Part shown: positions 13,651 to 63,135 of the stretch, one piece after another
Layout of the letters: each line of letters opens with the position of its first letter
Position numbering within the stretch: the first letter of the stretch is position 1
Translations under genes and position numbers: made by a program
From: a virus
Virus genome (UHGV): UHGV-0382128
Reading direction: 5' to 3' (one strand)
Length of the DNA stretch: 64,000 bases
Notes under the pieces: generated by a model
What the model was told of the DNA's origin: nothing
Databases searched by the model: none
The model's input: the letters and a program-made list of their open reading frames with translations, nothing else

Positions 13651-14550
13651 TTATTTCCCACGATAAAATCCAGAGATGTAGCTTGGCGCTATCCATCGCC
13701 ATTCGCGCCAACGCATTTCTGACATTTTACCACACCATACACGCTTCCAATGAGCACGACGGATATGTGCTGCGCAATAAATCGCCAAACAAACCTCGTG
13801 TCCCTCCTTGCGTTGTTGTTCTATATCTTCCCATTGTACCGGACTTACGTCTAAAACGACCGCTTCACTACGTGGGCGAATCTCTGTATCAGGAACATAA
13901 CGAATGGTCCTCCCGCGAAATTCTTTCTTCTCACGTTCAGTTCGTTTAATTCGCGATGAAAGATATAGTCCGATATAGACGGCGTCGAGTAGTCGTTGAT
14001 TCTCCTTAACCGAAGTAAGGAGCGGCTTTAACTCCACGAAATCATCATTACTTTTATCGATCGTGTAAATCTCAAACTCCATGTATACCGACTCGTCATG
14101 TTCTTCGCATGACATCACAAAGAGAACTTCTTCACCTTCGTAAAGACGTCTTCCGATAAATAACGTGATTGGACATTCGTCGAGATTTACGGTAACCGAG
14201 AAAGTAAATGAAGGGATGGTTTCTATCCAGAAGTACGGGATATTTTTTAGTCTCTCAGTTTTTGCTAAGAGCGCCATCAGTTCTTCATCCGAGATGATTT
14301 CAACAGCAGCGTATTGCCATCCTAGTCCCAGGGACTGCTTAATCAGTCTGGGAATCTGTTCGGTAACGCCATATTCACGATAGGTCGGATCTTTAACTGG
14401 CATAAACGTTACGGGTATTTGTCGTTTATGCTCGTTAATGAACCGAATAAAACGGCACTGATCTAATCCGTGAATTGTTTGGTGTGCTTTTTCTATCTGT
14501 TCGCTCATGCGTCTTAGCGCTTTCCCGTAAAGTCTATTATTCGTTGTCAT
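13651..14550 (-). CDS. hypothetical protein, member of a 2-gene paralogue family with conserved C-terminal AAHIRRAHW motif
   Basis: ORF track, start moved to internal Met (MTTNNRLYG) preceded by AGGAG SD so it no longer overlaps the upstream paralogue; C-terminus AAHIRRAHWKRVWCG. Confidence 0.55.
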   Translation of the reverse strand: MTTNNRLYGKALRRMSEQIEKAHQTIHGLDQCRFIRFINEHKRQIPVTFMPVKDPTYREYGVTEQIPRLIKQSLGLGWQYAAVEIISDEELMALLAKTERLKNIPYFWIETIPSFTFSVTVNLDECPITLFIGRRLYEGEEVLFVMSCEEHDESVYMEFEIYTIDKSNDDFVELKPLLTSVKENQRLLDAVYIGLYLSSRIKRTEREKKEFRGRTIRYVPDTEIRPRSEAVVLDVSPVQWEDIEQQRKEGHEVCLAIYCAAHIRRAHWKRVWCGKMSEMRWREWRWIAPSYISGFYRGK

Positions 14551-14575
14551 TTTAATGCTCCTAAACACTTTTAGC

Positions 14576-15502
14576 TTAATTGTGGGGTACGTAGCCACGG
14601 ACAAATGTAGGTGGAATCCAACAAAGTTTTCTTTTTCTTTCCCCATCTCTTGGACCGACCCAATATCTGCGCCAGTGCGCGCGACGAATATGTGCGGCCT
14701 TGGCGTGTTTGATACCTTCCATGGTTTTCAAGTCGGTGTTAAATCCCTTTAGATATTTCACTTGTTCTGGTGTGATGTCTATTTTAACGTCACGTTCACG
14801 AGGTTTGATTTCGTGACTTATGCTACCATTCTTTTTGATTTCTTTGAACTTAATGTCATTGAAAGACCCTCTGAGATTGGGCGGGATTAGCGTACAGAGA
14901 AATATCAACGATATGGCGGTTTTGGCCAGTGATAACCATAACGTCTTCTCTTGTTCGGTCTGTACGCCAGTTGTATAATCGATTTCAACAAGCCCGTTTC
15001 CAACACTACATATCTCTAACGAGCAGGTGGCGATTGTGGTAACGCCTTCTGTTAACCCGTAATCAGTATTTGTAGCAATTATAATAAACCTTCTATTCCC
15101 ATTTTTTCGATAACCGAGAAAGAAAGTCTCATCTTCTTTACCTACATCGATTGCCACAGTCCAAGTAGGTATAAAGTCCAACCATTCTTCAGGGAATTTA
15201 CTGGGCATCTCAGTCTCGAAAACAAGTTCTCTAAGTGCTCGATCGGATATTAAGGAAGCACCACCGTATAGCCATCCGATCGCCAATGTTTGAGCGTGAA
15301 GGGAACGGGGATCTTTGAGACCTAACTCAGCATCGTAGGGTATAAAGGCATTAGTTAAATGCTTACGATTCTTTTTTATCCATTTCGAGACGGGATTTTC
15401 TTTTGTTTGGTTTTCTTCCATGACATTTTCTAGATGCTGACTCCCCATTTGTCTAAGGCAGTCTTTAATACCTTTTACTTTTTTACTTTTGTACAAATAC
15501 AT
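14576..15502 (-). CDS. hypothetical protein, paralogue of 13651..14550
   Basis: C-terminus AAHIRRAHWRRYWVGP...WIPPTFVRGY parallels the neighbouring gene. Confidence 0.55.
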   Translation of the reverse strand: MYLYKSKKVKGIKDCLRQMGSQHLENVMEENQTKENPVSKWIKKNRKHLTNAFIPYDAELGLKDPRSLHAQTLAIGWLYGGASLISDRALRELVFETEMPSKFPEEWLDFIPTWTVAIDVGKEDETFFLGYRKNGNRRFIIIATNTDYGLTEGVTTIATCSLEICSVGNGLVEIDYTTGVQTEQEKTLWLSLAKTAISLIFLCTLIPPNLRGSFNDIKFKEIKKNGSISHEIKPRERDVKIDITPEQVKYLKGFNTDLKTMEGIKHAKAAHIRRAHWRRYWVGPRDGERKRKLCWIPPTFVRGYVPHN

Positions 15503-15560
15503 GGTATATTCTCCTAAAATGGTTAAAAAAGATAGAGGGACGCTTTAGCGTCCCTCTAAG

Positions 15561-16046
15561 TCAATCATCTTCGGTAAGTTCAGGATGGTGGGTTTTTAAG
15601 TATCCCCATATCTGAATGGCGAGTGGCTCTTGATTTTCTAGAATCATCTGCTTTATTTTAGACTTCGACCCCCCATTCCAAATTTCCTTATAAAGTTTTC
15701 TCCATTCCTCACAAGCATAAAGAACGGTTGTTGTCGGATTTATAGGTAATGAACGATCGTTGTCTAAGAGTTTGACTGTACTATCTAGGATAATGTTAAG
15801 ACATGTTATTATATCTGCTTTTGACACGACAGACTTATCGGAGGGAAAGAAATTAGGCAGATGGCCCATTATAACGCTTTTATAGGTTATCGTAATAAAT
15901 TTACCCACGGCGGTTACCATCCATGGTTCAGCTTTTCTAGATACGTACAAATAAGATGGTAACTGTTTCTCTATTAAATCTATATGGTTTAAAAACAAGT
16001 GAGTAATAGCGCTATTACTCGGCTTAATGATGTTATTTATGTACAT
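15561..16046 (-). CDS. hypothetical protein (161 aa), tandem paralogue A
   Basis: ORF track; shares EEW.K.Y..IW...L..W..LK..P pattern with 16076..16561. Confidence 0.5.
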   Translation of the reverse strand: MYINNIIKPSNSAITHLFLNHIDLIEKQLPSYLYVSRKAEPWMVTAVGKFITITYKSVIMGHLPNFFPSDKSVVSKADIITCLNIILDSTVKLLDNDRSLPINPTTTVLYACEEWRKLYKEIWNGGSKSKIKQMILENQEPLAIQIWGYLKTHHPELTEDD

Positions 16047-16075
16047 AAAGTACTCTCTTATTTTCAGTCTATATT

Positions 16076-16561
16076 CTATAGTGACACGTAAATAGGATAA
16101 TTAGCTTTCAGCCACTCCCATAGCTGTAAGGAAAGTAGGTTTTCATTACGTTCGATGATTTCCATGATTTCGTCCAAGTTAGAATCTTCAACCCAAATCC
16201 GGGTATAAAATTTTTCCCATTCCGGTTCTGTATAAGGGACTAGAGGAGTAGGGAATCGCTCCATGTGGTACGCATCAGAAACTTTCTTTAAGAACTCGTC
16301 GCGACCATGGCGTAGGCGTTGCCGAACGTCTGTTTCTGTTATGCGCTTGCTTGATAGATCGGAGAAGTCAAATAGGCTAAATATGTATTGCGTTAGACAC
16401 CGAGAAGAAAAGTAGGACGCGGCATAAGCCGCCATCCAAGGAGTGTCTGCAACCAACGGAGTCAACTTTTCTTCAATTTCTTTTCTTACACGTGTTTCGT
16501 TATTGAGAAATTCATGTACGATATCGCAGTTACGAATATCGAAGATATGATTTAAGTTCAT
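16076..16561 (-). CDS. hypothetical protein (161 aa), tandem paralogue B
   Basis: ORF track; same length and C-terminal pattern as 15561..16046. Confidence 0.5.
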   Translation of the reverse strand: MNLNHIFDIRNCDIVHEFLNNETRVRKEIEEKLTPLVADTPWMAAYAASYFSSRCLTQYIFSLFDFSDLSSKRITETDVRQRLRHGRDEFLKKVSDAYHMERFPTPLVPYTEPEWEKFYTRIWVEDSNLDEIMEIIERNENLLSLQLWEWLKANYPIYVSL

Positions 16562-16562
16562 T

Positions 16563-17087
16563 TTACTGTCCTAAAATTGGGGTGAGTCTGTCTGCGGTGT
16601 TTAACAATGCTTTTGTAATTTCGTGGTTGGTCTCTTTTAGGATGGCGCAGCAGAGAGTGGTATAAACCTCGATTGCTAAACCGATTTCTTGTTCAGTCAG
16701 ACACGGTTCGGTGCCGCCAATCCCGTAACGCTGCGCTGCATACTCAATTTCAAGTTTCAAACGTTTTCGTAGTGCCTCGTCATCAGTTAAACGCGCGCAC
16801 GCCCGATCGAAACGTCTATTGTAAGCCTCGATCTTGTGGACAATTTCGCGTCGCAGTTGGTCGACCTTTACGTTATCATCAAGAGTGATGGTGACGTTGT
16901 CAACTAAACAGTAATGCACCGCGTGTCGTAAGTTGTGTAATGTGGCGGCAGTAACGACCCGCTCCTGATGGTCGCTAAAGCCGTGGGCACCACAGAGCTT
17001 GCGTGCAACCGCGCCAGAGATTTTCTCCTCTAACGCTATCGGCGTGGCAATGGTTGTTTTCTTACGAAGCTGAATTAAAATATCCAC
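16563..17087 (-). CDS. hypothetical protein (174 aa)
   Basis: ORF track. Confidence 0.5.
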   Translation of the reverse strand: MDILIQLRKKTTIATPIALEEKISGAVARKLCGAHGFSDHQERVVTAATLHNLRHAVHYCLVDNVTITLDDNVKVDQLRREIVHKIEAYNRRFDRACARLTDDEALRKRLKLEIEYAAQRYGIGGTEPCLTEQEIGLAIEVYTTLCCAILKETNHEITKALLNTADRLTPILGQ

Positions 17088-24451: not shown

Positions 24452-25000
24452 TTAAATGTCAACTTCTAGTTTACGGTAATCGATGACACCTTGAGCAATC
24501 ATAGCAGCAACATCGTTCCAAGTACGAAAAATGAAGTAAACTGTGTCTCCGTTTAAAAAGATGTTAGATTCTTTATCCGGGAAATCGTCTTCACTGAGGT
24601 AGTAGTAGGGTTTGTCGAATGGGAAGTCGCGCTCATCAGAGGAACCAAGTACCGCATAACGATTGCCACAATCAAACAGAATCTTCCAACCAGACATTTC
24701 ACTATTAGCGTCAATACGATCGACGATTTCAACGGTAATAGGAGAATGATCAAGAAAACTGATTGTAATATCTCCGTTATAACGCTTGAATCGCCAAATA
24801 TCTGTAGGTACGATTTCAGATGCCGCTATAAGGGAATAAAGTTGTGTTGATGTGATCTTTTTGTAAACGTTAGTTCCATCTCCAAAATGGTTATATAAGA
24901 AATTAGCCAGGAAATTTATATCCTTTAAACGTGTGCGGAAAACAGAACCACGACGAATACCGTAAGCCAGATGAGTTAAATATTCAGATGATGGAAACAT
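24452..25000 (-). CDS. hypothetical protein (182 aa), N-terminal paralogue of 25062..26006
   Basis: ORF track; N-termini MFPSSEYLTHLAYGIRR / MTFPSEVIYTLANIFRR align. Confidence 0.5.
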   Translation of the reverse strand: MFPSSEYLTHLAYGIRRGSVFRTRLKDINFLANFLYNHFGDGTNVYKKITSTQLYSLIAASEIVPTDIWRFKRYNGDITISFLDHSPITVEIVDRIDANSEMSGWKILFDCGNRYAVLGSSDERDFPFDKPYYYLSEDDFPDKESNIFLNGDTVYFIFRTWNDVAAMIAQGVIDYRKLEVDI

Positions 25001-25061: not shown

Positions 25062-26006
25062 TTATTTTTTGGTTTGGCCCAGCTTTTCAAGAACCAGTTC
25101 ACGAATGTACTTTTGAGTACGTTTCTTCGGCGGTAAAGCCATAAGGGTGTCAACGATTTCCTGGCCGCTGATAACCTTGCTGACGAGTTGCTGAACTTGG
25201 AAGAGTTCTGCTTCTTCGTCGCTAATTTCGTTAGCTTGGTCTTTCTGACACAACGCTTCTACCAGATCAGCTACGGATATTTCATTTTCGTCACCGGGGA
25301 AATCCAGGTTTAACGATTCGAAAACATCACGTTTAACGAGTACAGATTTCAGATCATCGTAGTTTTCACAAACGGCGACTTCTGTACCAGGTACCGTCGG
25401 TTCATTGTACTCAGCAAACAAATCTTCCATTACTTTCTGATCGTGCTCTACTTTCAAAGCGTGGAAGGTGTTGGAAGCCTTGGTTAAGACGTAACCAATT
25501 TGCTGCCAGCTACTCAGAATGAAGCAAAGCGTTTTTCCAGTTAGACCGATATTGCCCTGACGTGCGTCAAAAAAGATTTCTTCGGTGCGAGAAATCTGAC
25601 CCAGTTCGAAAAAGGTTTCTTTTTTGGCCGCGACGACTTCATACCGATTCTTACCCTGTTCTACAACAATTAACCAGTTACCAAGAATTTCGTGTTGGTA
25701 GTTTGATAGGGAGAGAGACTCGTTACCCACGAGTGGTTTAATGTCAATGGACGCCCGGCGCATACCCATTGAGAAGTTGAACTTAACCCCATTGTTATAC
25801 GCTGAGGCGTACTCGATCGGGATAATTTCTGAGACACGTTCAATATCCATAATTGTTTCCTGCGTAACACATGCAGGATCGGTACCAATTAGGTAATTAA
25901 ACAGAAAGTCGGCTGTAACGTCTGCCGATTTCCGAAAGATTGGGAAATTATGGCTGCGGCGGAAAATATTAGCCAGTGTATAGATTACTTCAGATGGAAA
26001 AGTCAT
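25062..26006 (-). CDS. hypothetical protein (314 aa) with acidic C-terminal extension
   Basis: ORF track. Confidence 0.55.
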   Translation of the reverse strand: MTFPSEVIYTLANIFRRSHNFPIFRKSADVTADFLFNYLIGTDPACVTQETIMDIERVSEIIPIEYASAYNNGVKFNFSMGMRRASIDIKPLVGNESLSLSNYQHEILGNWLIVVEQGKNRYEVVAAKKETFFELGQISRTEEIFFDARQGNIGLTGKTLCFILSSWQQIGYVLTKASNTFHALKVEHDQKVMEDLFAEYNEPTVPGTEVAVCENYDDLKSVLVKRDVFESLNLDFPGDENEISVADLVEALCQKDQANEISDEEAELFQVQQLVSKVISGQEIVDTLMALPPKKRTQKYIRELVLEKLGQTKK

Positions 26007-26605: not shown

Positions 26606-27115
26606 TTAGAAGAACGGCTGGTTTGGAATGACAGCGTACTCTAAAATGAACATGTGTTCTGGGGCGTCTTCTTTACGCCAGACTTTGTGTGTCGACACAA
26701 GTTTTTCCAGAATCGTTAAGAAACTGCGCTGGCAGTATGTGTTTTCACCAAGCAGTAGATTTTGAAGTTCTACAGTAGCGTCCATATACGCCTGTTTAAA
26801 GACTAAATTACGGTTATACTGCCCGGTAAAATTCCAAAGCAAGACTTTCCCTTCTTCGGTTTCTTTTACCGTTGGTCGTAAACCACAAATCCACAGTAAG
26901 GCAAGGTTGACGTTCCAGTCAAACTCTAAACCTTCTTCTTCGTCATCACCGAATGCTGTGGGTAAAGCATCGTAAAATTCGTGTTTCTCTGCGAATTCTT
27001 CATCCGACTTAATCTCGTCTTCGATACTGCTTCGGACGATACTGTAAACGTCTTTCGCGGTCAATTGTGCGGCTTTTGTAATGCCTTTATACCAATCGGT
27101 TACTACGATGCTCAA
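26606..27115 (-). CDS. hypothetical protein (169 aa)
   Basis: ORF track; ATGA overlap with upstream gene. Confidence 0.5.
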   Translation of the reverse strand: MSIVVTDWYKGITKAAQLTAKDVYSIVRSSIEDEIKSDEEFAEKHEFYDALPTAFGDDEEEGLEFDWNVNLALLWICGLRPTVKETEEGKVLLWNFTGQYNRNLVFKQAYMDATVELQNLLLGENTYCQRSFLTILEKLVSTHKVWRKEDAPEHMFILEYAVIPNQPFF

Positions 27116-27810
27116 AGGGTAACTCCTCTATTGATTGGAAAACTCGTGTTTATCGTATCCCAAATTCTACTAACTTCCGCCAGTTGAATCTGACGTGGTG
27201 TTTTCTTCGCAAACGCAAGCTGACGTGGGGCCGAGCCCACAACAACAGGCACATCGATTTTCGCGCTATAGAACGCGGCGTCTTTCATAAAGCCTGCCAT
27301 TTCTCGTTGTGCTGCTCGAGATTTGCTTTTGATTCGCGTGTGAGCGCCACTTTCACCCCAGTGGTAAGCTAACGCAATTTCAGCCATGGTGGGCTTGCGT
27401 TTGAGTCGTTTGGTTAACCCCCTCTCAAGATGTTTAACATACGCGGCAGCCAGCAAAACAGCATTACGCGGATTATATAAATCGGCGTTCTGACTAAGAC
27501 CTAATTCTTTTCCATAAAGCCTTAGCAGATTACGCTTGGTACTTGGAAGCATCTGTACCAGGCTGTGTGCTCGTGAGCTTTTGTTGTAAGCCTTGGGATC
27601 AAAACGTGATTCGCGATAAATCAGCGTAATCATCAGCTTAGGATCAACGCCTTGCTTTCGTGAGATTTCCACAATTAACGGGCTGACTTTTTCGAACCGA
27701 TGTTGGATTTGTGCAAACTCACGCTGATGCTTAGAATGTGGCGTTGACGTTGACGCCTGTGCGTTAAACGCGAAAAGTGTTACCAGTAAAAGAAAGAAGA
27801 TACGAAACAT
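27112..27810 (-). CDS. lytic transglycosylase (SLT domain) with Sec signal peptide; candidate endolysin
   Basis: start moved to MFRIFFLLLVTLFAFNAQAS (GGAG SD upstream); SLT catalytic region YRESRFDPKAYNKSSRAHSLVQMLPST. Confidence 0.7.
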   Translation of the reverse strand: MFRIFFLLLVTLFAFNAQASTSTPHSKHQREFAQIQHRFEKVSPLIVEISRKQGVDPKLMITLIYRESRFDPKAYNKSSRAHSLVQMLPSTKRNLLRLYGKELGLSQNADLYNPRNAVLLAAAYVKHLERGLTKRLKRKPTMAEIALAYHWGESGAHTRIKSKSRAAQREMAGFMKDAAFYSAKIDVPVVVGSAPRQLAFAKKTPRQIQLAEVSRIWDTINTSFPINRGVTL

Positions 27811-27910
27811 TTTGTTTCTCCAGTTGGATTTATACATTTCCGTATTCCGTAAGACGAAATGACGGCGCGGACAGCTAATACTCCTTTGTTGTGTGCCCTA
27901 ATGATAATAT

Positions 27911-28471
27911 CTATTTAAAAGAGTTTGGAATTAATGACTCTGCTTCTTGGTACAACTTATCAGGTAAGTATAACGTGTAGCACTGCCTCCTCGGTTCAAG
28001 TTTTTTGTAAAGCCACAAAAAGATTTCTTGTCTTTCCCAGGAATCTAACCACCCATTTGCCATTCCCAGTGGAGGGATAGCAACGCTGGTATTCAGATCC
28101 TCAGCACAGTCTGCTAGTGCGCTAATGCCCGCAGTAACATAAGAAACCTGTGACTTTAAACGCCAATGGGTTTTCGTGGGGAGCAAGATACACTTTTCAT
28201 CAGAGTAAACGTAAACGCTTCCAATCTTAATTTCGTCTTCACGACACCGCTTACGATAATCCTGATAAAGGTTGGGGTAGCGTTCACGGCACGCCAGTGC
28301 AATACCGCGACCCATCGCTCCTACGCAGTTAATGGTAACGACTTTATAGTCTTCGGGTGCATTAAAAAGATCGTTACCAATTTCAGATTCTTTACGTACC
28401 GTTAACATAACGAAACGTCCGGAGTTGGTGTGTAGTATTAAAACGTGTACCGCCGATTGATAGCTCGACAA
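27911..28471 (-). CDS. macro-domain-like protein (186 aa)
   Basis: VVTINCVGAMGRGIALA and SVAIPPLGMANGW resemble macro-domain VVNAAN..GGGV..AI and SIAFPAISTGVYG motifs. Confidence 0.45.
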   Translation of the reverse strand: MSSYQSAVHVLILHTNSGRFVMLTVRKESEIGNDLFNAPEDYKVVTINCVGAMGRGIALACRERYPNLYQDYRKRCREDEIKIGSVYVYSDEKCILLPTKTHWRLKSQVSYVTAGISALADCAEDLNTSVAIPPLGMANGWLDSWERQEIFLWLYKKLEPRRQCYTLYLPDKLYQEAESLIPNSFK

Positions 28472-28495
28472 GTATAGCGATATATGTTTTACCCA

Positions 28496-28864
28496 TTATC
28501 GATTTTTCGTAATCCATTGCTTGACCGCCGCTTCTAAACCTTCGTGTTGTAAGCCCAGGCGTTGCATAGTCAGTGCCAGGTTGAGCGTGTGTACAACCTG
28601 TTCACGGAACTGATGATCGTTCATACGGTCCCAGACCTTCTCTACTGAAATGTTGTGTTTCCAGAGCAAATAAGCTTCGCGACACGATGCGCGACGAACC
28701 AAGCTGGGTTTAACAAAAGGCAACTCGATTTCAGGCAAGTAACCTAAAAGCTTAACTAGCGGCGTTACTTGCGTCTTACCGAAGTCACCGCACTGATAAC
28801 AAATTTGCAGAATATCAATTTCATTCAACGGTATACCGTAAATTGATGGGTTCTCTGTGAACAT
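28496..28864 (-). CDS. hypothetical protein (122 aa)
   Basis: ORF track. Confidence 0.45.
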   Translation of the reverse strand: MFTENPSIYGIPLNEIDILQICYQCGDFGKTQVTPLVKLLGYLPEIELPFVKPSLVRRASCREAYLLWKHNISVEKVWDRMNDHQFREQVVHTLNLALTMQRLGLQHEGLEAAVKQWITKNR

Positions 28865-29132
28865 TCATATTCTCCTCAGGCTCGAAATGTGATTCGGGTG
28901 GCAATGTCCCTAAAGCCCCTTGGATACAAGCCGTCAGCGTAGGTTTGCCAAAACAGACCTTACCTATTGTCCCCACATTGGGATGTTGTAAGAACGCTTT
29001 TGCACGTTCGTATTCCTTCCAACAAATACTCGTATCCAAACCACCCACTCCGTACGATTTTAACATAATTAGCTCTCCTGACGTAAATTTCTCACACTCA
29101 TAGTGAGGTACGTCAGGAGAGCTTGATTGTTT

Positions 29133-29582
29133 TTAGAATGTTTTGCTAAAATCGACCCACTCACGATCGTGCGAGTAAACCGCCTGATAGCCGCGTCGGA
29201 TGAAATACTCTTTTGCTTCTTTACATTTCGCATACATGCCAGTAACAATCTCACCGAAAACTTCATCAGCTGCAATTGCTTTGAAAATCTCTTTCATTAC
29301 ACCCCGTTGACGATAGTCTGGGAGCACGTATACCGAACGTATCTTAAGTGAACCGTTACGATTCCGATAACTACAGTATCCTACCGCGACATCATCCTGA
29401 TACACCAGAACTATGCAGTTACCTTCGATCAGCTGTCGCGCATTTAACTTCGGCACCGACGTTTTGATTTTCAGTAACGTGGCCTGGTGGTCTAAGTAAC
29501 GGTAGTGTAGTTTGAGTAAATCGGCAGCTTGTCGCTCACCGACTTTAGAAGATGCGTTCAACAAATAAATTTCCATTTGCAA
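29133..29582 (-). CDS. GNAT-family acetyltransferase candidate (149 aa)
   Basis: VLPDYRQRGVMKEIFKAI resembles GNAT motif A. Confidence 0.5.
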   Translation of the reverse strand: MQMEIYLLNASSKVGERQAADLLKLHYRYLDHQATLLKIKTSVPKLNARQLIEGNCIVLVYQDDVAVGYCSYRNRNGSLKIRSVYVLPDYRQRGVMKEIFKAIAADEVFGEIVTGMYAKCKEAKEYFIRRGYQAVYSHDREWVDFSKTF

Positions 29583-29608
29583 ACCTTAGAGACGCAAAAA
29601 AAGTAAAA

Positions 29609-29737
29609 TTAAAACCAACGCGCGATGACGAATGCCGCAGCGGCTAATATGGCCGTGGTGATTATTAATCCACCCCATGAAAGTTCCGCATCGTATAATG
29701 CGGATATCGCTACATTCGTAGTGTTTATCGAGGTCAT
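29609..29737 (-). CDS. small single-TM peptide (about 42 aa), not in ORF track
   Basis: manual translation MTSINTTNVAISALYDAELSWGGLIITTAILAAAAFVIARWF; AGGAG SD 5-6 nt upstream. Confidence 0.3.
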   Translation of the reverse strand: MTSINTTNVAISALYDAELSWGGLIITTAILAAAAFVIARWF

Positions 29738-29794
29738 TTTCTGCTCCTAGTAATACCCTCACGCCGGAGGGTATCTTCTGGATTATTTGGGTGG

Positions 29795-29893
29795 TTAATC
29801 TTCGAACGCCCAACGGTGTCGTTTAATCAGCCAGTTTAAACCTTTACCAATTAACCACAACGAGCCAAGTGTTAACAGAACCCCTACAACCAT
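29795..29893 (-). CDS. small single-TM peptide (32 aa), not in ORF track
   Basis: manual translation MVVGVLLTLGSLWLIGKGLNWLIKRHRWAFED; SD AGGAGAGGG upstream. Confidence 0.3.
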   Translation of the reverse strand: MVVGVLLTLGSLWLIGKGLNWLIKRHRWAFED

Positions 29894-29903
29894 ATTCCCT
29901 CTC

Positions 29904-30089
29904 CTAATTCCGCCATTCGCATTCGCGTTGACGCCAAATTGAACCCCACGATAGTTTAATCAGATAAGATGAAACTACCCATAAAATCATCACCACACAA
30001 AACATGACATAAAGAACCGCTAGAATGGACATGAAGCCAAACCCTGCCGCATCCACAATACGACGGAACCAATCAGTTTGCATAAACAA
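29904..30089 (-). CDS. small membrane protein (61 aa)
   Basis: ORF track; hydrophobic core FGFMSILAVLYVMFCVVMILWVV; start overlaps end of the Rad50-like gene. Confidence 0.3.
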   Translation of the reverse strand: MFMQTDWFRRIVDAAGFGFMSILAVLYVMFCVVMILWVVSSYLIKLSWGSIWRQRECEWRN

Positions 30090-32577
30090 TTTTTACTCCT
30101 TCGTTATACACCGCAGGCAATGTCACTCCTTCCGGTTCGATGACACAGTACGATGCTTCATTAAGTTTAGAATGGACCTCAGCTTCGTGGGAAACTACCA
30201 AGAGTTGTGAAAATTCTCCCGAGTTTGCTAACGTTTTAATAAAGCCGACCAGGTTATTACGGTGTTCCTCGTCCATGCCTTCCGAAGGCTCATCCAAAAG
30301 CAACGGAAACTGATGCAACTTCAGCGCTTTGTACGCAGTCAGTCTGAACATCAGATTAAATATAGCACGCTGTGCCTTAGACCCTTTACGCACGTCAGGA
30401 ACAGGCTCAGGGTGCGTTTTTAGCTGGACAGGAAAAGTATAATCCAAATCGCCGTCAGTGAGATCACAGGGCATAACACGCATGGGGTACGTCCAGACCT
30501 GTTCGATATAACGCGTCATTAACTCTGTGATTCTAACGATAGCGTTGTAAAAATACTTTCTAAGTACACCCTTTTCTGGCGAGAAGGCTTGAATCATCAG
30601 TTTGTTATTGAACTGCTGGGCTTGTAAGTCAGCAAGTTCACGTTCCAAACTGTTGAGTTGGTTCAATTCATTTTCCATCTGACGATAACGCTCGCGTGCG
30701 GTTGTAAAAGCATCCAGCTTCCCTTCCCGCACTCGTAAGAGTTCCTCGACGACCGTATTTGTCAACGTAACCTTAACATCACTCTCTAACCGTTCGAATA
30801 ACGCACTGAAATCATCTACAGCACGTTTAACATTCACTAGATAGGTAAGTGTCGTGTTAGCCAGTTCGTGCTCTCTACGACGCATTGAGAGCATCTCTGT
30901 GGCTTTACCTAATCGCGACTGTTGGAAGGCGATTTTCTGTTGTAAAGCACCATCGACGTTACCAACGGCCGCTACGGCATCCTGCCATTCTTTTTCCGCT
31001 TTCACTAACCGTTGTCGGGTTTCATGGTACTCAATAGCAGAGTACAATTCACCGTCAAACGCTGCACATAGACTCCCGAACTGCTCGCGAGATTCTGTGA
31101 AAACGTTACGTTCTTGCAAACGCTTAAAGAACATGCTCAATATCGGGTCCTTTGAATACGTCAGCACAATCTCACGAACCTGCCGCATATAAGTTACATC
31201 AGATTCTAATTCAACACGATCGCGTAATAAGGTCTCTAGCTGTGTTTGAAGTTCCGTCCGTTGCTGCTGTTGACCACGAATCGATGACTCGAGTTCAGGT
31301 AAAGAACGCGTAACACCTGGCCGAAACTTAAACCGACACTGCGGACAATCCACTTCTGCCGTTTCTAAGTAGTGGTTACGTTCGTGATTTAAATTCTGTA
31401 AAACGTTCTCCACTCGCTGGAGTCTATCCCGTAATCCTGCGGTTTTTTGATCCATCACCAGAAGACGTTCTTCCAAAACATTGAGTTTCTCGGTTGAATG
31501 AATAGCGTCCAGTGTTGTTCCCAACCGTTGTCCCCAAACACGCGCATCGGTAGCCGCACGAAGTTGGTCTAAATTAACGTTATCGTTAAATAAACCTGGA
31601 AAGAGATGTTCGGTGTCCCACTTGGTAAGTAACTCACGTAAACGTGCCAGTGTGTTCTTGAGACCTTCGTGGTTCCGCATCAGGTAGTCTTGTCGTGTTG
31701 ACTCATCCATCAATAGCGATAAATCTTTATTCAACATCGATACCTCTGTTTCGGTAGAAACGACGGCTTCGCGGGCTGTCGCTTCATTTTGTCGGGCGGC
31801 CAGTATCTGTTCATCAGTAGGCAACCCACCACGATGTTGTAATATTGCGTCGATGGTTGGACCCAAACCGTTTAATAACGCTTGGATTGTTTCGATCGTG
31901 ACAGCACGATTTAATCCTGGCAACTGTTCGATTTCTCGGTTCAGTTCACGTAAATCCGATTCCAAACCTTTTAATCTCGTTGCTAATTGTTGTCGTTCTT
32001 CCTCGTTCTCAATAACGCGCGTCCGTAATTCGGCAATCTTACGACTGGTGATTTCAATACCTCCATTTAAGGCGGTAAGGTTTTTACGCAAACGTTGATA
32101 AAACCCTAACGCGTATGTGAGATCAGAGGTACTTAAACGGTAAAACCATTTACGGCGTAATTCGGTTCCCGCTTCGGTTAACAAAACCTCACCATTTAAT
32201 AGTTCTTTAATTTCTTTCGTAATACCCGTGATTTCTTCAACACGAGAGTTGTAGACCTTCGCATTACCTTGCTCGACGATCTTTGCTCCCGTGGTCAGAT
32301 TTTCAATATCGCAAACCAAAGAGTTACCTTTACGGGCAACTTTGAATCGATACCGTTGATCACCAACTAAACAGTAGTTCGTGTAAGAACCGCCGTCTCT
32401 GAATTCAGTTTTAGCCGGTGCTAAGGGTAAGAATACAGACAGTAGACTGGTTTTCCCGCAACCGTTCCCACCTAGGATAATTGTTGTTGGAGACTGGATA
32501 GTGAAATCGAAAGTTTCAATTTCATGTAATCCCATCCCCGTAAAACCTTTGAGTATAATGCGTTCAACTTTTAGCAT
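30073..32577 (-). CDS. Rad50/SbcC-like SMC-family ATPase (T4 gp46-like) with CPxC zinc hook
   Basis: Walker A GGNGCGKTSLL, central coiled-coil with VDCPQCRF hook, Walker B LLLDEPSEGMD, H-loop VVSHEAEV; start moved to MLKVERI with GGAGGTGGGT SD. Confidence 0.65.
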   Translation of the reverse strand: MLKVERIILKGFTGMGLHEIETFDFTIQSPTTIILGGNGCGKTSLLSVFLPLAPAKTEFRDGGSYTNYCLVGDQRYRFKVARKGNSLVCDIENLTTGAKIVEQGNAKVYNSRVEEITGITKEIKELLNGEVLLTEAGTELRRKWFYRLSTSDLTYALGFYQRLRKNLTALNGGIEITSRKIAELRTRVIENEEERQQLATRLKGLESDLRELNREIEQLPGLNRAVTIETIQALLNGLGPTIDAILQHRGGLPTDEQILAARQNEATAREAVVSTETEVSMLNKDLSLLMDESTRQDYLMRNHEGLKNTLARLRELLTKWDTEHLFPGLFNDNVNLDQLRAATDARVWGQRLGTTLDAIHSTEKLNVLEERLLVMDQKTAGLRDRLQRVENVLQNLNHERNHYLETAEVDCPQCRFKFRPGVTRSLPELESSIRGQQQQRTELQTQLETLLRDRVELESDVTYMRQVREIVLTYSKDPILSMFFKRLQERNVFTESREQFGSLCAAFDGELYSAIEYHETRQRLVKAEKEWQDAVAAVGNVDGALQQKIAFQQSRLGKATEMLSMRRREHELANTTLTYLVNVKRAVDDFSALFERLESDVKVTLTNTVVEELLRVREGKLDAFTTARERYRQMENELNQLNSLERELADLQAQQFNNKLMIQAFSPEKGVLRKYFYNAIVRITELMTRYIEQVWTYPMRVMPCDLTDGDLDYTFPVQLKTHPEPVPDVRKGSKAQRAIFNLMFRLTAYKALKLHQFPLLLDEPSEGMDEEHRNNLVGFIKTLANSGEFSQLLVVSHEAEVHSKLNEASYCVIEPEGVTLPAVYNEGVKIVYAN

Positions 32578-32630
32578 ACCCACCTCCATAAAGACGGAGT
32601 GTGGTGTAAAAAGAAAAAAAAATAGAGAAA

Positions 32631-32652
32631 GGGAGAACCCGAAGGTTCTCCC
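32631..32652 (-). terminator. rho-independent terminator
   Basis: hairpin gggagaacc-cgaa-ggttctccc preceded on plus strand by A10 run. Confidence 0.55.
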
Positions 32653-32657
32653 AAACG

Positions 32658-33266
32658 TTATTTGGTATATGGGTGATAACCCATTGAAGTCCAATAATCG
32701 ATGTTCTTTGTGTTTTCTACCCAAACCTGTCCCGCTTTTGTGGCCAAGACTTCCATTGTCAGTGCACAGATCAGGTTTGTTACCGGAATGCAATTTCCTG
32801 GCGTAACGTCGTCCAGATAAACCGGGTATAAAAACGGTGATTTAATGGATTGGTACGGATAAGAATAGTGATTGCCGACCTTCCACCCTTCCTCTACAGG
32901 ACAGAGATTAAACGTACGTGTTTCTGGAACTGCGTTTTCAGAGATCCAGTTAACAACATCGGCTTTAATTCGGTCGTGGTCGATATAGTAGAACACGACA
33001 CGTTGTGGGATACTTGTGGTACCAGCCGGGTCTAAAGCCTCCAACGCCTTGAAAGGCGTCGTTAACAATGTTGAACTGTTCTCAAGTGCGTAAACCAATT
33101 TTTCGTAAGCAGTCGGCGTTTTACGTTTAAAATACTCCCGTAAGCGTGGATACGCCAGGAAGCCCTCTACTTCCTCTTCCATTAAGTCGATGAATAAAGG
33201 CGTATGCGAAAAACGCTCTGCATTTTGCATCGCTTCAAGAAAACGAACTAATGTAATTTCGTTCAT
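32658..33266 (-). CDS. hypothetical protein (202 aa)
   Basis: ORF track. Confidence 0.5.
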   Translation of the reverse strand: MNEITLVRFLEAMQNAERFSHTPLFIDLMEEEVEGFLAYPRLREYFKRKTPTAYEKLVYALENSSTLLTTPFKALEALDPAGTTSIPQRVVFYYIDHDRIKADVVNWISENAVPETRTFNLCPVEEGWKVGNHYSYPYQSIKSPFLYPVYLDDVTPGNCIPVTNLICALTMEVLATKAGQVWVENTKNIDYWTSMGYHPYTK

Positions 33267-59248: not shown

Positions 59249-60163
59249 ATGGAAGAACTTACTAGACCGACGGTATCCGATAAGCTCTACAGTAATCCGA
59301 GAACGTTAAACGTGATTACAACATCCAAATGTAATCTGGACTGTAGCTTCTGCGGCGGAGCCTATTACATGCATAGAGAGGATACAACCGCAGAAGTACA
59401 AAAGGAAAGTATTATCGAGGCGCTGGAAAATAACCCGACTATCACAAATATCCAATGGTCAGGGGGCGAACCATTACTTGCCACGCGTAAAATTGATACC
59501 CTTATAGAAGAGATAAGGGAGAAGTATCCTCGTTGCGAACATTACCTGTATACCAATGGTTTAAAAATGCGTAAATCGCATCTACCGTTGTTAAAGGGTT
59601 TTGATAGTATCTTTTTTAGCATGGATGGATTCAAAGAATCAGAGCGTCCGTTCATGCGGATTATCGAAGAAAAACAATACGAGGTTTTGGAGACAATTTA
59701 CGAATTGAAAAATATTCGTACTTGGGCGGTTTTGACGCGCGAGCGTATTGGGGATAAACGTTGGTACGAAGATATAATTGCGTTACATAACCACATTTAC
59801 CATTATGGTTTTTGTGAGATGTCGCTGGTTTTGGACAAAAACATGCCAAAACCGTTATCTCCCGATCACGTTATGAACTTTATTTACGGGTATTTTAGAA
59901 TTCAGGAGAATATAGAAAGACTGAATTCGTCCAATCGAAGCGAATGTGCGTTTACGCTAAATGCGTTATTTGATGAACCCTGTAACACATGTAGTCGTTG
60001 TTTTCGCATTGAGTCTGACGGTGCCCAGAACCAAGTAAAGAACGTTGAAATCGTAACGCAACACGGCTGTAGTGACTTGGCCAGAAAGGTTGGATTAGAT
60101 GCTTACGACTATATACGTCGTGTGGTAGGGGCTAAGAATAGAGTCTCAGAAAAACTACGATAA
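59249..60163 (+). CDS. radical SAM enzyme 1 (304 aa)
   Basis: CNLDCSFCGG (CxxxCxxC), GGEPLL, C-terminal CNTCSRC and GC auxiliary-cluster-like cysteines. Confidence 0.75.
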   Translation: MEELTRPTVSDKLYSNPRTLNVITTSKCNLDCSFCGGAYYMHREDTTAEVQKESIIEALENNPTITNIQWSGGEPLLATRKIDTLIEEIREKYPRCEHYLYTNGLKMRKSHLPLLKGFDSIFFSMDGFKESERPFMRIIEEKQYEVLETIYELKNIRTWAVLTRERIGDKRWYEDIIALHNHIYHYGFCEMSLVLDKNMPKPLSPDHVMNFIYGYFRIQENIERLNSSNRSECAFTLNALFDEPCNTCSRCFRIESDGAQNQVKNVEIVTQHGCSDLARKVGLDAYDYIRRVVGAKNRVSEKLR

Positions 60164-62196: not shown

Positions 62197-63135
62197 ATGG
62201 ACTCACCTGCAATGACAACCGACGTAGAGCCAAGGTTATCGAATCGTTTATACAATAAACCCACCGTATTGTCCGTAGTTGCTACATCCAAATGTAATCT
62301 GGACTGTAGCTTCTGCGGCGGAGCCTATTACATGCATCGTGAAGATTCTCCGCGAGAGTTTCAACGTGAACGAATTTTGAAAGCGTTGGCGTCTAACCCA
62401 ACCATTACTGAAATTCAGTGGACTGGCGGTGAACCGCTACTGGCAACTCGAAAGATTGAGGCGTTTGTCGACGAATTAAAAACGATCCGTCCTGAACTCA
62501 AACACCAGATGTTCACGAACGGTTTAAAAATGCGTAAATCGCATCTACCGTTGTTAAAACAATTCGATGGTATATATGTTAGCATCGATGGGTTTAATCT
62601 TTCTGAACGGCCTTTTAAGCGCTTTATTGATGATAATTGTCATGAAGCGTTAGAAGTAATTTACAGCTTGAATAATGTTAACACCTGGGCTGTTGTTACG
62701 AGGGAGAATTTATCCAATAAAAGATGGCATGAAGATATCATTCAATTACATACTGCTATCTATCATTACGGTTTTCGTTCCATGTCCTTATTACTAGATA
62801 AAAACATGCCAAAACCGTTATCTCCCGATCACGTTATGAACTTTATTTACGGGTATTTTAGAATTCAGGAGAATATAGAAAGATTAAACGTTCTAAATTC
62901 TAGAGACTGCGGTTTTATTGTAAACAGATTCTTCGATCATGCTTGTAATGTCTGTAGCGAAAGTCTCAGGATAGACGCGGACGGGGAAGAAAACCAACTT
63001 AAAAATGTACCAATAACTACAAAAGCAGGGTGTAACCAACTAGCCTCCTCAATAGGTGTAGAAGCTTACGAGTACATTCGTCGTGTAGTGATGGCAGAGC
63101 GTAATAGAGGGGCGGAAAATGAGTCAAGAAAATAG
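62197..63135 (+). CDS. radical SAM enzyme 2 (312 aa), paralogue of 59249..60163
   Basis: CNLDCSFCGG motif; several blocks of perfect nucleotide identity with radical SAM enzyme 1. Confidence 0.75.
   Translation: MDSPAMTTDVEPRLSNRLYNKPTVLSVVATSKCNLDCSFCGGAYYMHREDSPREFQRERILKALASNPTITEIQWTGGEPLLATRKIEAFVDELKTIRPELKHQMFTNGLKMRKSHLPLLKQFDGIYVSIDGFNLSERPFKRFIDDNCHEALEVIYSLNNVNTWAVVTRENLSNKRWHEDIIQLHTAIYHYGFRSMSLLLDKNMPKPLSPDHVMNFIYGYFRIQENIERLNVLNSRDCGFIVNRFFDHACNVCSESLRIDADGEENQLKNVPITTKAGCNQLASSIGVEAYEYIRRVVMAERNRGAENESRK

What the first reader, a model, noticed from the sequence alone, without database searches (positions are those of the whole stretch)
27911..28471. Macro-domain-like protein (possible ADP-ribose-removing enzyme)
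The 186-aa product carries the two hallmark macro-domain stretches (VVTINCVGAMGRGIALA and SVAIPPLGMANGW). Macro domains hydrolyse ADP-ribose adducts, so in a phage this is a candidate counter-measure against host ADP-ribosylating systems, or a regulator of phage ADP-ribosylation of host proteins. It lies in a region with a GNAT and small membrane peptides, consistent with an accessory or host-interaction island.
Basis: partly seen in the sequence, partly recalled or inferred. Interest (0 to 1): 0.55.

Follow-up and report, generated by a model that had tools for sequence, protein, structure and literature searches.

The report
Jumbo-phage AdfM anti-DarT macrodomain gene
This gene encodes a small stand-alone macrodomain enzyme of the recently described AdfM family, which nucleus-forming jumbo phages use to strip ADP-ribose off their DNA and so escape the bacterial DarTG2 defence; it is a routine new ortholog of a known counter-defence protein.

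Summary
The macro-domain gene is real, but it lies on the minus strand and is shorter than reported: 27911..28408, 165 aa, ATG start. The 21-codon TTG extension is not coding. Close relatives carry in-frame stops there, and all homologs are 161-166 aa.

The product is a DarG-type macrodomain:
- Pfam Macro scores above its gathering threshold, and PADLOC DarG gives 2e-36.
- The best solved-structure matches, by sequence and by predicted fold (pLDDT 93.5), are the DarG macrodomains of M. tuberculosis and T. aquaticus (TM 0.78/0.85).
- The catalytic Lys (K79 = Taq K80) and Asn (N27 = Taq N22) are conserved.

It lacks DarG's C-terminal DarT-binding domain and has no adjacent darT gene. It is 61% identical to Erwinia phage Asesino gp217 and 40% identical to PhiKZ gp104. 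Both are named members of AdfM ("anti-DarT factor macro", Morgan et al., Cell Rep 2026), which removes DarT2-made ADP-ribose from phage DNA inside the phage nucleus.

The whole window is collinear with Salmonella jumbo phage SPN3US, so the gene sits in a conserved backbone rather than a mobile island. The family is already characterised, so interest is low.

The parts
27911..28408 (-). adfM-like gene: 165-aa stand-alone DarG2-type macrodomain (ATG 28408..28406, TAG stop 27913..27911)
   Evidence: ORF. Start codon settled by relatives. Pfam Macro above the gathering cut-off. PADLOC DarG 2.2e-36. 61% identity to Asesino gp217 and 40% to PhiKZ gp104/AdfM. AF2 model pLDDT 93.5, with DarG macrodomain 5m3e as top fold hit.
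28409..28471 (-). Spurious 5' extension of the mechanical ORF (21 codons from a TTG); not part of the protein
   Evidence: In-frame stops at the equivalent position in L005/L006 and SPN3US. The 186-aa sequence is absent from the protein collection while the 165-aa one is present.
28292..28342 (-). ADP-ribose-binding motif 1, VVTINCVGAMGRGIALA (residues 23-39). Includes T25 (= Taq DarG T20), N27 (= Taq N22 / PhiKZ N23; codon 28328..28330) and the GxMGxG loop.
   Evidence: Alignment to the DarG structures. Residue roles from PMC5179494 and PMC13309987. N27 is at least 90% conserved and G30/M32/G33/G35 are invariant in 32 homologs.
28163..28180 (-). Catalytic segment P-T-K-T-H-W (residues 77-82). 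K79 (codon 28172..28174) = Taq DarG K80 / PhiKZ K78, the catalytic lysine; W82 = Taq W83.
   Evidence: Alignments. T78 and K79 are invariant in 32 homologs. K80A inactivates Taq DarG (PMC5179494).
28049..28087 (-). ADP-ribose-binding motif 2, SVAIPPLGMANGW (residues 108-120). G115/N118/G119 = Taq G117/N120/G121. A117 replaces Taq G119, as in PhiKZ AdfM (GCANGG). W120 replaces Taq G122.
   Evidence: Alignments. Ligand contacts listed in PMC5179494.
28392..28496 (-). Small conserved upstream ORF (34 aa, MGKTYIAILVELSIGGTRF...). Its ATG overlaps the stop of the 122-aa gene (TAATG) and its 3' end overlaps the adfM start by 17 nt. Context only; function unknown.
   Evidence: Present in L005, L006 and L007, with many synonymous differences over the first 19 codons. 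The N-terminus resembles SPN3US gp071, which likewise overlaps gp070.

Best explanation
The gene encodes an AdfM ortholog, an 'orphan antitoxin': the catalytic macrodomain of a DarG2 antitoxin without DarG's C-terminal toxin-binding domain and without a partner toxin. The host DarT2 toxin of a DarTG2 defence system ADP-ribosylates thymidine in single-stranded phage DNA (TNTC-type motifs). In PhiKZ this reduces phage DNA replication and blocks genome packaging. The phage macrodomain binds the ADP-ribose adduct in its cleft, formed by the T25/N27, GxMGxG and GMANG loops, and cleaves the thymidine-ribose bond using the catalytic lysine K79, restoring unmodified DNA. The phage is an SPN3US/Asesino-type nucleus-forming jumbo phage. 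The protein is therefore most likely imported into the phage nucleus and acts there as a second layer of protection behind the nuclear shell. Shown here: the gene, the fold, DarG-type identity, conserved catalytic residues, orphan architecture, and orthology/synteny with named AdfM members. Inferred from published work on homologs: the enzymatic activity, DNA-thymidine specificity, nuclear localisation, and protection from DarTG2.
For: DarG-type identity:
- Best solved-structure sequence matches are the DarG macrodomains 5m3i (1.1e-25) and 5m31/5m3e (1.7e-20).
- PADLOC DarG scores 2.2e-36.
- The NCBIfam DarG equivalog scores 1.7e-35 and covers only its macro half, positions 7-155 of 338.
- The AF2 model has pLDDT 93.5 and pTM 0.90. 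Top fold hits are 5m3e, 5m3i and 5m31 (E about 1e-13, TM 0.78/0.85, rmsd about 2 A), then T. africanus DarTG, ahead of TARG1 and viral nsP3 macrodomains.

Active site:
- N27 and T78-K79 align with Taq N22 and T79-K80 and are conserved across 32 homologs.
- K80A and N22A cripple Taq DarG, and the macrodomain alone suffices as antitoxin (PMC5179494).

Orthology to AdfM:
- 40% identity and E 2e-29 to PhiKZ gp104, which removes DarT2 ADP-ribose from DNA in vitro, rescues DarT2 toxicity and is needed for growth on DarTG2 hosts.
- 61% identity and E 8e-73 to Asesino gp217, a named AdfM shown to localise to the phage nucleus.
- Same gene order in all: SMC ... GNAT ... macro, then transglycosylase.

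Phage type and substrate:
- The window is collinear with SPN3US over about 60 kb, including an RNAP beta-subunit fragment at 83% identity. SPN3US has a chimallin homologue (PMC9365700).
- TNTC sites are abundant and not depleted (2292 observed against about 2203 expected), so the genome is a substrate for DarT2.
Against: - No activity, localisation or phenotype data exist for this protein or any member of its immediate clade. For Asesino only localisation was shown. Biochemistry and genetics come from PhiKZ/PhiPA3 homologs at about 40% identity.
- Three ligand-contact or functionally tested Taq positions differ: K29->R34, Q34->A39 and G119->A117. The last is shared with active PhiKZ AdfM. In addition, Taq G122, within the ADPr-gripping loop (residues 117-122), is W120 here.
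- The chimallin and PicA genes are not in the window, so nucleus formation by this particular phage is inferred from collinearity.
- The host and its DarTG2 content are unknown. Relatives occur in Salmonella enterica assemblies.
Confidence: 0.8

Rival explanations
1. It removes ADP-ribose from another substrate instead of, or in addition to, DarT2-modified DNA. Candidates are ADP-ribosylated proteins (as for the structurally related TARG1), ADP-ribosylated RNA, or adducts made by a phage-encoded ADP-ribosyltransferase.
For: TARG1 is a clear but more distant structural match (4j5q E 2.9e-7, TM 0.72/0.80) and shares the catalytic lysine mechanism (PMC5179494). Loop substitutions relative to DarG (W120, R34, A39) could alter specificity. 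The finding's second hypothesis was of this kind.
Against: All the best sequence, profile and fold matches are DarG macrodomains, by 6 or more orders of magnitude. The AdfM paper states that DarG2 macrodomains act on DNA ADP-ribosylation, and loss of PhiKZ AdfM had a phenotype only on DarTG2 hosts. No second macro gene was found in the window.
Confidence: 0.08
2. It is a metabolite-processing macrodomain, either an ADP-ribose-1''-phosphate phosphatase or an O-acetyl-ADP-ribose deacetylase. This is what the legacy annotations imply ('Appr-1-p processing protein', PHROG 335 'phosphatase').
For: PHROG 335 is labelled phosphatase. Several Erwinia phage records call the homolog 'putative Appr-1-p processing protein'. 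There are weak matches to Poa1p-type phosphatase structures 6lft etc. (E 0.018-0.046 over about 57 residues).
Against: Those labels are inherited generic macro-domain names. The Poa1p matches are about 20 orders of magnitude weaker than the DarG matches. The protein has the TARG1/DarG-type catalytic lysine context P-T-K-x-H-W. The homolog PhiKZ gp104 has demonstrated DNA de-ADP-ribosylation activity.
Confidence: 0.04
3. It is a catalytically inactive ADP-ribose binder (reader or decoy) rather than a hydrolase.
For: Some loop positions differ from Taq DarG (A117, W120, R34). One 95%-identical database relative (P0001) has Tyr at the Asn27 position.
Against: The catalytic Lys and the Asn are conserved in this protein and in nearly all of 32 homologs. 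The A117 substitution is shared with enzymatically active PhiKZ AdfM. The predicted cleft-forming fold is intact.
Confidence: 0.03

Closest known systems
AdfM (anti-DarT factor macro) of chimalliviruses: PhiKZ gp104, PhiPA3 gp108, Goslar gp83, Asesino gp217 (Morgan et al., Cell Rep 2026, PMC13309987)
   Same: Stand-alone macrodomain of about 160-166 aa with DarG2-like sequence and fold. The active-site Asn and Lys are conserved. It is encoded by a jumbo phage of the nucleus-forming group. It is 61% identical to Asesino gp217, in the same gene neighbourhood, and 40% identical to PhiKZ gp104.
   Different: No experimental data exist for this protein. It belongs to the enterobacterial (SPN3US/Asesino-like) branch, for which only localisation (Asesino) has been shown. 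Its loop reads GMANGW, against GCANGG in PhiKZ.
DarG2 antitoxin of DarTG2 toxin-antitoxin / phage-defence systems (T. aquaticus and M. tuberculosis DarG; PDB 5m3e, 5m31, 5m3i; NCBIfam NF048014)
   Same: The macrodomain is the closest solved structure (TM 0.78/0.85, 32-35% identity). It has the same catalytic Lys, the Asn, and the ADP-ribose loop glycines and Asn.
   Different: It lacks the C-terminal DarT-binding domain: only positions 7-155 of the 338-position model match, scoring 122.9 bits against a cut-off of 250. It has no adjacent darT gene. It is encoded by a phage, so it works against the defence rather than as part of it.
AdfN (phage NADAR-type orphan antitoxin against DarTG1; Johannesman et al., Nat Commun 2025, PMC11825919), and AdfA/AdfB
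   Same: Same strategy: a phage-borne orphan antitoxin-like enzyme, or a toxin inhibitor, that neutralises DarT.
   Different: AdfN has a different fold (NADAR) and a different adduct (guanosine, DarT1), and does not counter DarTG2. AdfA and AdfB are not known to be glycohydrolases; AdfB likely neutralises DarT by direct binding.
Human TARG1 (C6orf130) macrodomain
   Same: Same macrodomain subclass and lysine-based catalytic mechanism, and a clear structural match (4j5q/4j5s, TM 0.72-0.84).
   Different: Only about 19% identity. TARG1 acts on protein-linked ADP-ribose. The Trp after the catalytic Lys (W82 = Taq W83, proposed to stack on thymine) is Ala in TARG1.

Membership tests
AdfM (chimallivirus anti-DarT factor macro) | Macrodomain fold | tested here: met
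   AF2 model pLDDT 93.5 / pTM 0.90. 186 PDB hits at E<=1e-3; the 50 listed are macrodomains or proteins designed on that scaffold. Pfam PF01661 scores 27.6 bits, above the cut-off of 22.
AdfM (chimallivirus anti-DarT factor macro) | Closest to bacterial DarG2 macrodomains rather than other macro classes | tested here: met
   PDB sequence search: DarG 1e-25 and 2e-20, against the next class at 0.018. PADLOC DarG 2.2e-36. NCBIfam DarG 1.7e-35. Foldseek top 4 are all DarG/DarTG.
AdfM (chimallivirus anti-DarT factor macro) | Active-site Asn (PhiKZ N23 / Taq N22) and Lys (PhiKZ K78 / Taq K80) present | tested here: met
   N27 and K79 align to these positions. K79 is invariant and N27 at least 90% conserved in 32 homologs.
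AdfM (chimallivirus anti-DarT factor macro) | Significant similarity and positional orthology to named members | tested here: met
   Asesino gp217: 61% identity, E 8e-73. PhiKZ gp104: 40% identity, E 2e-29. Same flanking genes (SMC, GNAT, transglycosylase) in Asesino and SPN3US.
AdfM (chimallivirus anti-DarT factor macro) | Orphan architecture: stand-alone macrodomain, no DarT-binding domain, no adjacent darT | tested here: met
   165 aa. Matches only positions 7-155 of the 338-position DarG model. Neighbours are SLT, GNAT, SbcC-like and unknowns, with no DarT hit.
AdfM (chimallivirus anti-DarT factor macro) | Encoded by a nucleus-forming (chimalli-) jumbo phage | tested here: met
   Indirect. 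The 64-kb window is collinear with SPN3US (25-83% aa identity), including an RNAP beta-subunit fragment at 83%. SPN3US has a chimallin homologue and Asesino forms a nucleus. Chimallin and PicA themselves lie outside the window.
AdfM (chimallivirus anti-DarT factor macro) | Removes DarT2-installed ADP-ribose from thymidine in ssDNA and neutralises DarT2 toxicity | not testable with these tools
   Shown only for PhiKZ gp104. Needs biochemistry and co-expression.
AdfM (chimallivirus anti-DarT factor macro) | Imported into the phage nucleus (PicA pathway); protects phage on DarTG2 hosts | not testable with these tools
   Localisation shown for PhiKZ, PhiPA3 and Asesino proteins; protection shown for PhiKZ and PhiPA3.
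DarG2 antitoxin (NCBIfam NF048014 equivalog) | Full two-domain protein scoring above the curated cut-off | tested here: not met
   122.9 bits against a cut-off of 250. Only the macro half of the model is matched.
DarG2 antitoxin (NCBIfam NF048014 equivalog) | Encoded next to a darT toxin gene | tested here: not met
   No DarT domain among 10 flanking ORFs. The context is a phage backbone.
Appr-1''-p phosphatase / MacroD-type metabolite macrodomains (legacy annotation) | Best similarity to Poa1p/MacroD-type enzymes | tested here: not met
   Poa1p-type structures match only at E 0.018-0.046 over about 57 residues. MacroD/viral-type folds rank well below DarG.

The most novel reading that the evidence does not exclude
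The enterobacterial branch of AdfM (this protein, SPN3US gp070, Asesino gp217) carries clade-specific changes around the ADP-ribose cleft: a near-invariant Trp in place of Taq DarG G122, Arg for K29, Ala for Q34, and a conserved YLPxxLYxEA C-terminal helix. These could reflect a shifted specificity, such as a different DarT family, a different modified base, or ADP-ribosylated RNA. They could also be a distinct nuclear-import surface. The translationally overlapping 34-aa upstream peptide might be a functional partner. None of this is excluded by my data, but nothing positively supports it.
Probability: 0.07. Interest if true: 0.45.

Novelty: new member of a known kind. Interest (0 to 1): 0.15.

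Why it matters
It adds one more uncharacterised ortholog to the AdfM family, in a roughly 225-kb SPN3US-like jumbo-phage lineage. That lineage is absent from the phage reference collection at the DNA level, but is seen repeatedly in public assemblies, including Salmonella enterica isolates. Practically, it corrects the gene model and replaces the legacy labels 'phosphatase' and 'Appr-1-p processing protein' with a specific, testable function. It also predicts that this phage resists DarTG2-carrying enterobacterial hosts. It opens no new question, because the mechanism was published in 2026.

Tried and rejected
- Megablast of 27000..30000 against 50,697 phage records gave no match, so the phage could not be identified at the DNA level. 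Protein-level search was needed.
- The 186-aa TTG-start gene model was rejected.
- The sigma-70 promoter and intrinsic terminator scan of 27000..29700 found nothing above shuffled expectation near the gene (4 promoter-like sites against 4.5 expected). The terminator-like sites lie inside coding regions. This is uninformative, as expected for a phage with its own RNA polymerases.
- I tested whether the genome avoids the DarT2 motif TNTC. It does not (2292 against about 2203 expected from base composition).
- I tested for recent horizontal acquisition by composition. Gene GC is 43.4% and GC3 42.2%, against 44.2% GC for the window, so there is no anomaly.
- I searched the window for a second macrodomain with a profile of the 32-sequence alignment. 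Only this ORF was found.
- Pfam scan of ten ORFs, most of which lack SPN3US counterparts, gave no hits.
- I considered the 'accessory island' reading and rejected it as stated, because of conserved synteny. The few small genes between GNAT and macro do differ between phages.

Full report
**Observation**

The ORF listing shows an ORF at 27911..28471 on the minus strand, 186 aa from a TTG. The finding gave no strand. Both quoted peptide stretches are in its translation. The macro-domain signal is not chance:
- Pfam PF01661: E 3.1e-6, 27.6 bits against a gathering cut-off of 22.
- PHROG 335: 1.3e-35.
- PADLOC DarG: 2.2e-36.
- NCBIfam antitoxin_DarG: 1.7e-35.
- Solved DarG macrodomains: 1.1e-25 (5m3i) and 1.7e-20 (5m31/5m3e).

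**Gene model**

The TTG start is wrong. An ATG at 28408 gives a 165-aa protein.
- Database homologs are 161-166 aa, apart from one 174-aa and one 175-aa call.
- The exact 165-aa sequence is in the public collection (P0049). The 186-aa sequence is not.
- In the 88%-identical relatives L005/L006 an in-frame stop lies three codons upstream of the ATG. In SPN3US a stop lies directly before it.
- The apparent extension is the alternate frame of a small ORF at 28392..28496 (34 aa, MGKTYIAILVELSIGGTRF...). This ORF is conserved in L005-L007, with many synonymous differences. Its ATG overlaps the stop of the upstream 122-aa gene (TAATG), and its 3' end overlaps the macro ATG by 17 nt.
- The small ORF's N-terminus resembles SPN3US gp071, which likewise overlaps the macro gene gp070.

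The gene is therefore 27911..28408 (-), running from ATG to TAG.

**What the protein is**

The best matches by sequence are all DarG, the antitoxin of the DarTG2 system. The NCBIfam DarG equivalog is matched only over model positions 7-155 of 338. The score is 122.9 bits against a cut-off of 250. So the protein corresponds to DarG's N-terminal macrodomain alone and lacks the C-terminal DarT-binding domain.

An AlphaFold2 model built on a 32-sequence alignment is confident, with pLDDT 93.5 and pTM 0.90. Foldseek against the PDB ranks the hits as follows:
- T. aquaticus DarG macrodomain with ADP-ribose (5m3e): E 1.5e-13, TM 0.78/0.85, rmsd 2.0 A.
- M. tuberculosis DarG (5m3i) and apo Taq DarG (5m31).
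- T. africanus DarTG (7omu).
- Only after these, TTHA0132, TARG1 and the alphavirus nsP3 macrodomains, at E about 1e-7.

**Active site**

The residue roles come from Jankevicius et al. 2016 (PMC5179494), and the equivalences from the alignments.

| Taq DarG residue | This protein (165-aa numbering) |
|---|---|
| N8 | D13 (Mtb DarG also has Asp) |
| L9 | L14 |
| T20 | T25 |
| N22 | N27 |
| K29 | R34 |
| Q34 | A39 |
| T79 | T78 |
| K80 (catalytic) | K79 |
| H82 | H81 |
| W83 | W82 |
| G117 | G115 |
| G119 | A117 (PhiKZ gp104 also has Ala: GCANGG) |
| N120 | N118 |
| G121 | G119 |
| G122 | W120 |

T78, K79 and the loop glycines are invariant across the 32 homologs, and N27 is at least 90% conserved. 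K80A abolishes Taq DarG activity and N22A is the next most damaging mutation. The macrodomain alone is sufficient as antitoxin.

**Genome context**

Megablast found no phage record. tblastn found homologs in 264 phage records. The best, at 57-61% identity, are SPN3US-like Salmonella/Escherichia jumbo phages and Erwinia jumbo phages.

ORF-by-ORF tblastn shows the whole window is collinear, in reverse, with SPN3US from about 200.7 kb to 141 kb, at 25-83% amino-acid identity. This includes an RNA polymerase beta-subunit fragment at 83%.

Around the gene the order is:
- an SbcC/SMC-like protein (30073..32793);
- three small hydrophobic peptides;
- a GNAT (29133..29582);
- an 81-aa ORF, a 122-aa ORF and the 34-aa ORF;
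- the macro gene;
- an SLT transglycosylase (27112..27837).

The same order holds in SPN3US (gp080...gp068), in Asesino (gp207...gp218) and in close metagenomic relatives.

Gene GC is 43.4%, against 44.2% for the window. This is a conserved backbone segment and not a mobile island, although the few small genes between GNAT and macro vary between phages. SPN3US carries a diverged chimallin homologue (PMC9365700), and Asesino is an experimentally studied nucleus-forming phage.

**Comparison with what is known**

Morgan et al. (Cell Rep 2026, PMC13309987) describe exactly this family as AdfM, 'anti-DarT factor macro'. Their main results are:
- PhiKZ gp104 removes DarT2-installed ADP-ribose from a TNTC oligonucleotide. 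An N23A mutant is impaired.
- It rescues DarT2 toxicity in E. coli.
- It is required for PhiKZ and PhiPA3 to grow on DarTG2-carrying hosts.
- It lowers ADP-ribosylation of DNA in infected cells.
- It is imported into the phage nucleus.

They find AdfM in about half of chimalliviruses and name Asesino gp217 as a member, showing its nuclear localisation. The window protein is 61% identical to Asesino gp217 (E 8e-73) and 40% identical to PhiKZ gp104 (E 2e-29). It occupies the same genomic position as gp217.

Related counter-defences differ in fold or mechanism:
- AdfN is a NADAR enzyme against DarTG1, specific for guanosine adducts.
- AdfA and AdfB are not known to be glycohydrolases; AdfB likely neutralises DarT by direct binding.

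**Mechanism, and what is shown versus inferred**

Shown here:
- the gene and its fold;
- DarG-type identity;
- conserved catalytic residues;
- orphan architecture with no adjacent darT;
- orthology and synteny with named AdfM members;
- abundant TNTC target motifs in the genome (2292 observed against about 2203 expected).

Inferred from homologs:
- hydrolysis of thymidine-linked ADP-ribose on phage ssDNA made by host DarT2;
- action within the phage nucleus;
- protection of replication and packaging.

I put about 0.8 on this explanation. The rivals are low for the reasons given in their entries. They are another ADP-ribosylated substrate, a metabolite phosphatase/deacetylase as in legacy annotations, and an inactive binder.

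**Verdict**

The second hypothesis (regulating phage ADP-ribosylation of host proteins) and the 'island' framing are not supported. This is a new, uncharacterised member of a published family, so interest is low.

Noticed in passing
window 28392..28496 (-): A conserved 34-aa ORF (MGKTYIAILVELSIGGTRFNTTHQLRTFRYVNGT) with a hydrophobic N-terminal half. Its ATG overlaps the stop of the upstream 122-aa gene (TAATG) and its end overlaps the adfM start by 17 nt. It is conserved in L005-L007 with many synonymous changes. Its N-terminus resembles SPN3US gp071 (82 aa), which likewise overlaps gp070. Function unknown; possibly translationally coupled to adfM.
   Followed up: partly
window 30073..32793 (-): The SbcC/SMC-like ORF is listed as 906 aa from a TTG, but homologs are called at about 834-836 aa and the Pfam/PHROG matches begin near residue 70-76. 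The true start is probably the ATG of 'MLKVERIILKG' (about residue 73). This would also remove the overlap with the upstream gene 32658..33266.
   Followed up: partly
window 59249..60163 (+) and 62197..63135 (+): Two paralogous genes (63% identical, E 5e-150) both match the SPN3US gp102 'radical SAM domain-containing protein' region. They flank a gp101 homolog. This is a local duplication or rearrangement relative to SPN3US.
   Followed up: partly
window 13651..17087 (-): Five consecutive ORFs (331, 308, 161, 161 and 174 aa) have no counterpart in the syntenic SPN3US region and no Pfam hit. They include two diverged tandem paralog pairs: 13651/14576 at 23% identity (E 4e-20) and 15561/16076 at 26% identity (E 1.5e-16). 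This is a lineage-specific expansion and a better candidate for an accessory region than the macro locus.
   Followed up: partly
window 24452..25000 (-) and 25062..26006 (-): Adjacent genes are diverged paralogs (27% identity over 192 aa, E 7e-10), with no Pfam hit. The longer one matches PHROG 11818 (unknown function).
   Followed up: partly
relatives: P0008 / L005 (GCA_014613015.1 contig AAWEAX010000007.1, 226,167 bp), P0051, P0052-P0057: The 90%-identity protein cluster has 157 members, on contigs of up to about 227 kb, in many public assemblies. These include Salmonella enterica isolate genomes. Yet the region has no megablast match in the 50,697-record phage collection. This suggests an undescribed SPN3US-like jumbo-phage lineage that travels with Salmonella isolates (carrier state or contamination).
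   Followed up: no
P0001 (95% identical homolog, 1.4-kb ENA contig): The cluster representative has Tyr instead of the active-site Asn27 (TIYCVG against TINCVG). It is either an inactive variant or a sequencing error.
   Followed up: no
window 29609..30089 (-): Three small hydrophobic ORFs (42, 32 and 61 aa) lie between the SMC-like gene and the GNAT. Small genes are annotated at the same position in SPN3US (gp079-gp076), Asesino (gp208-gp211) and close relatives (L006/L007), so they are probably real small membrane proteins.
   Followed up: partly
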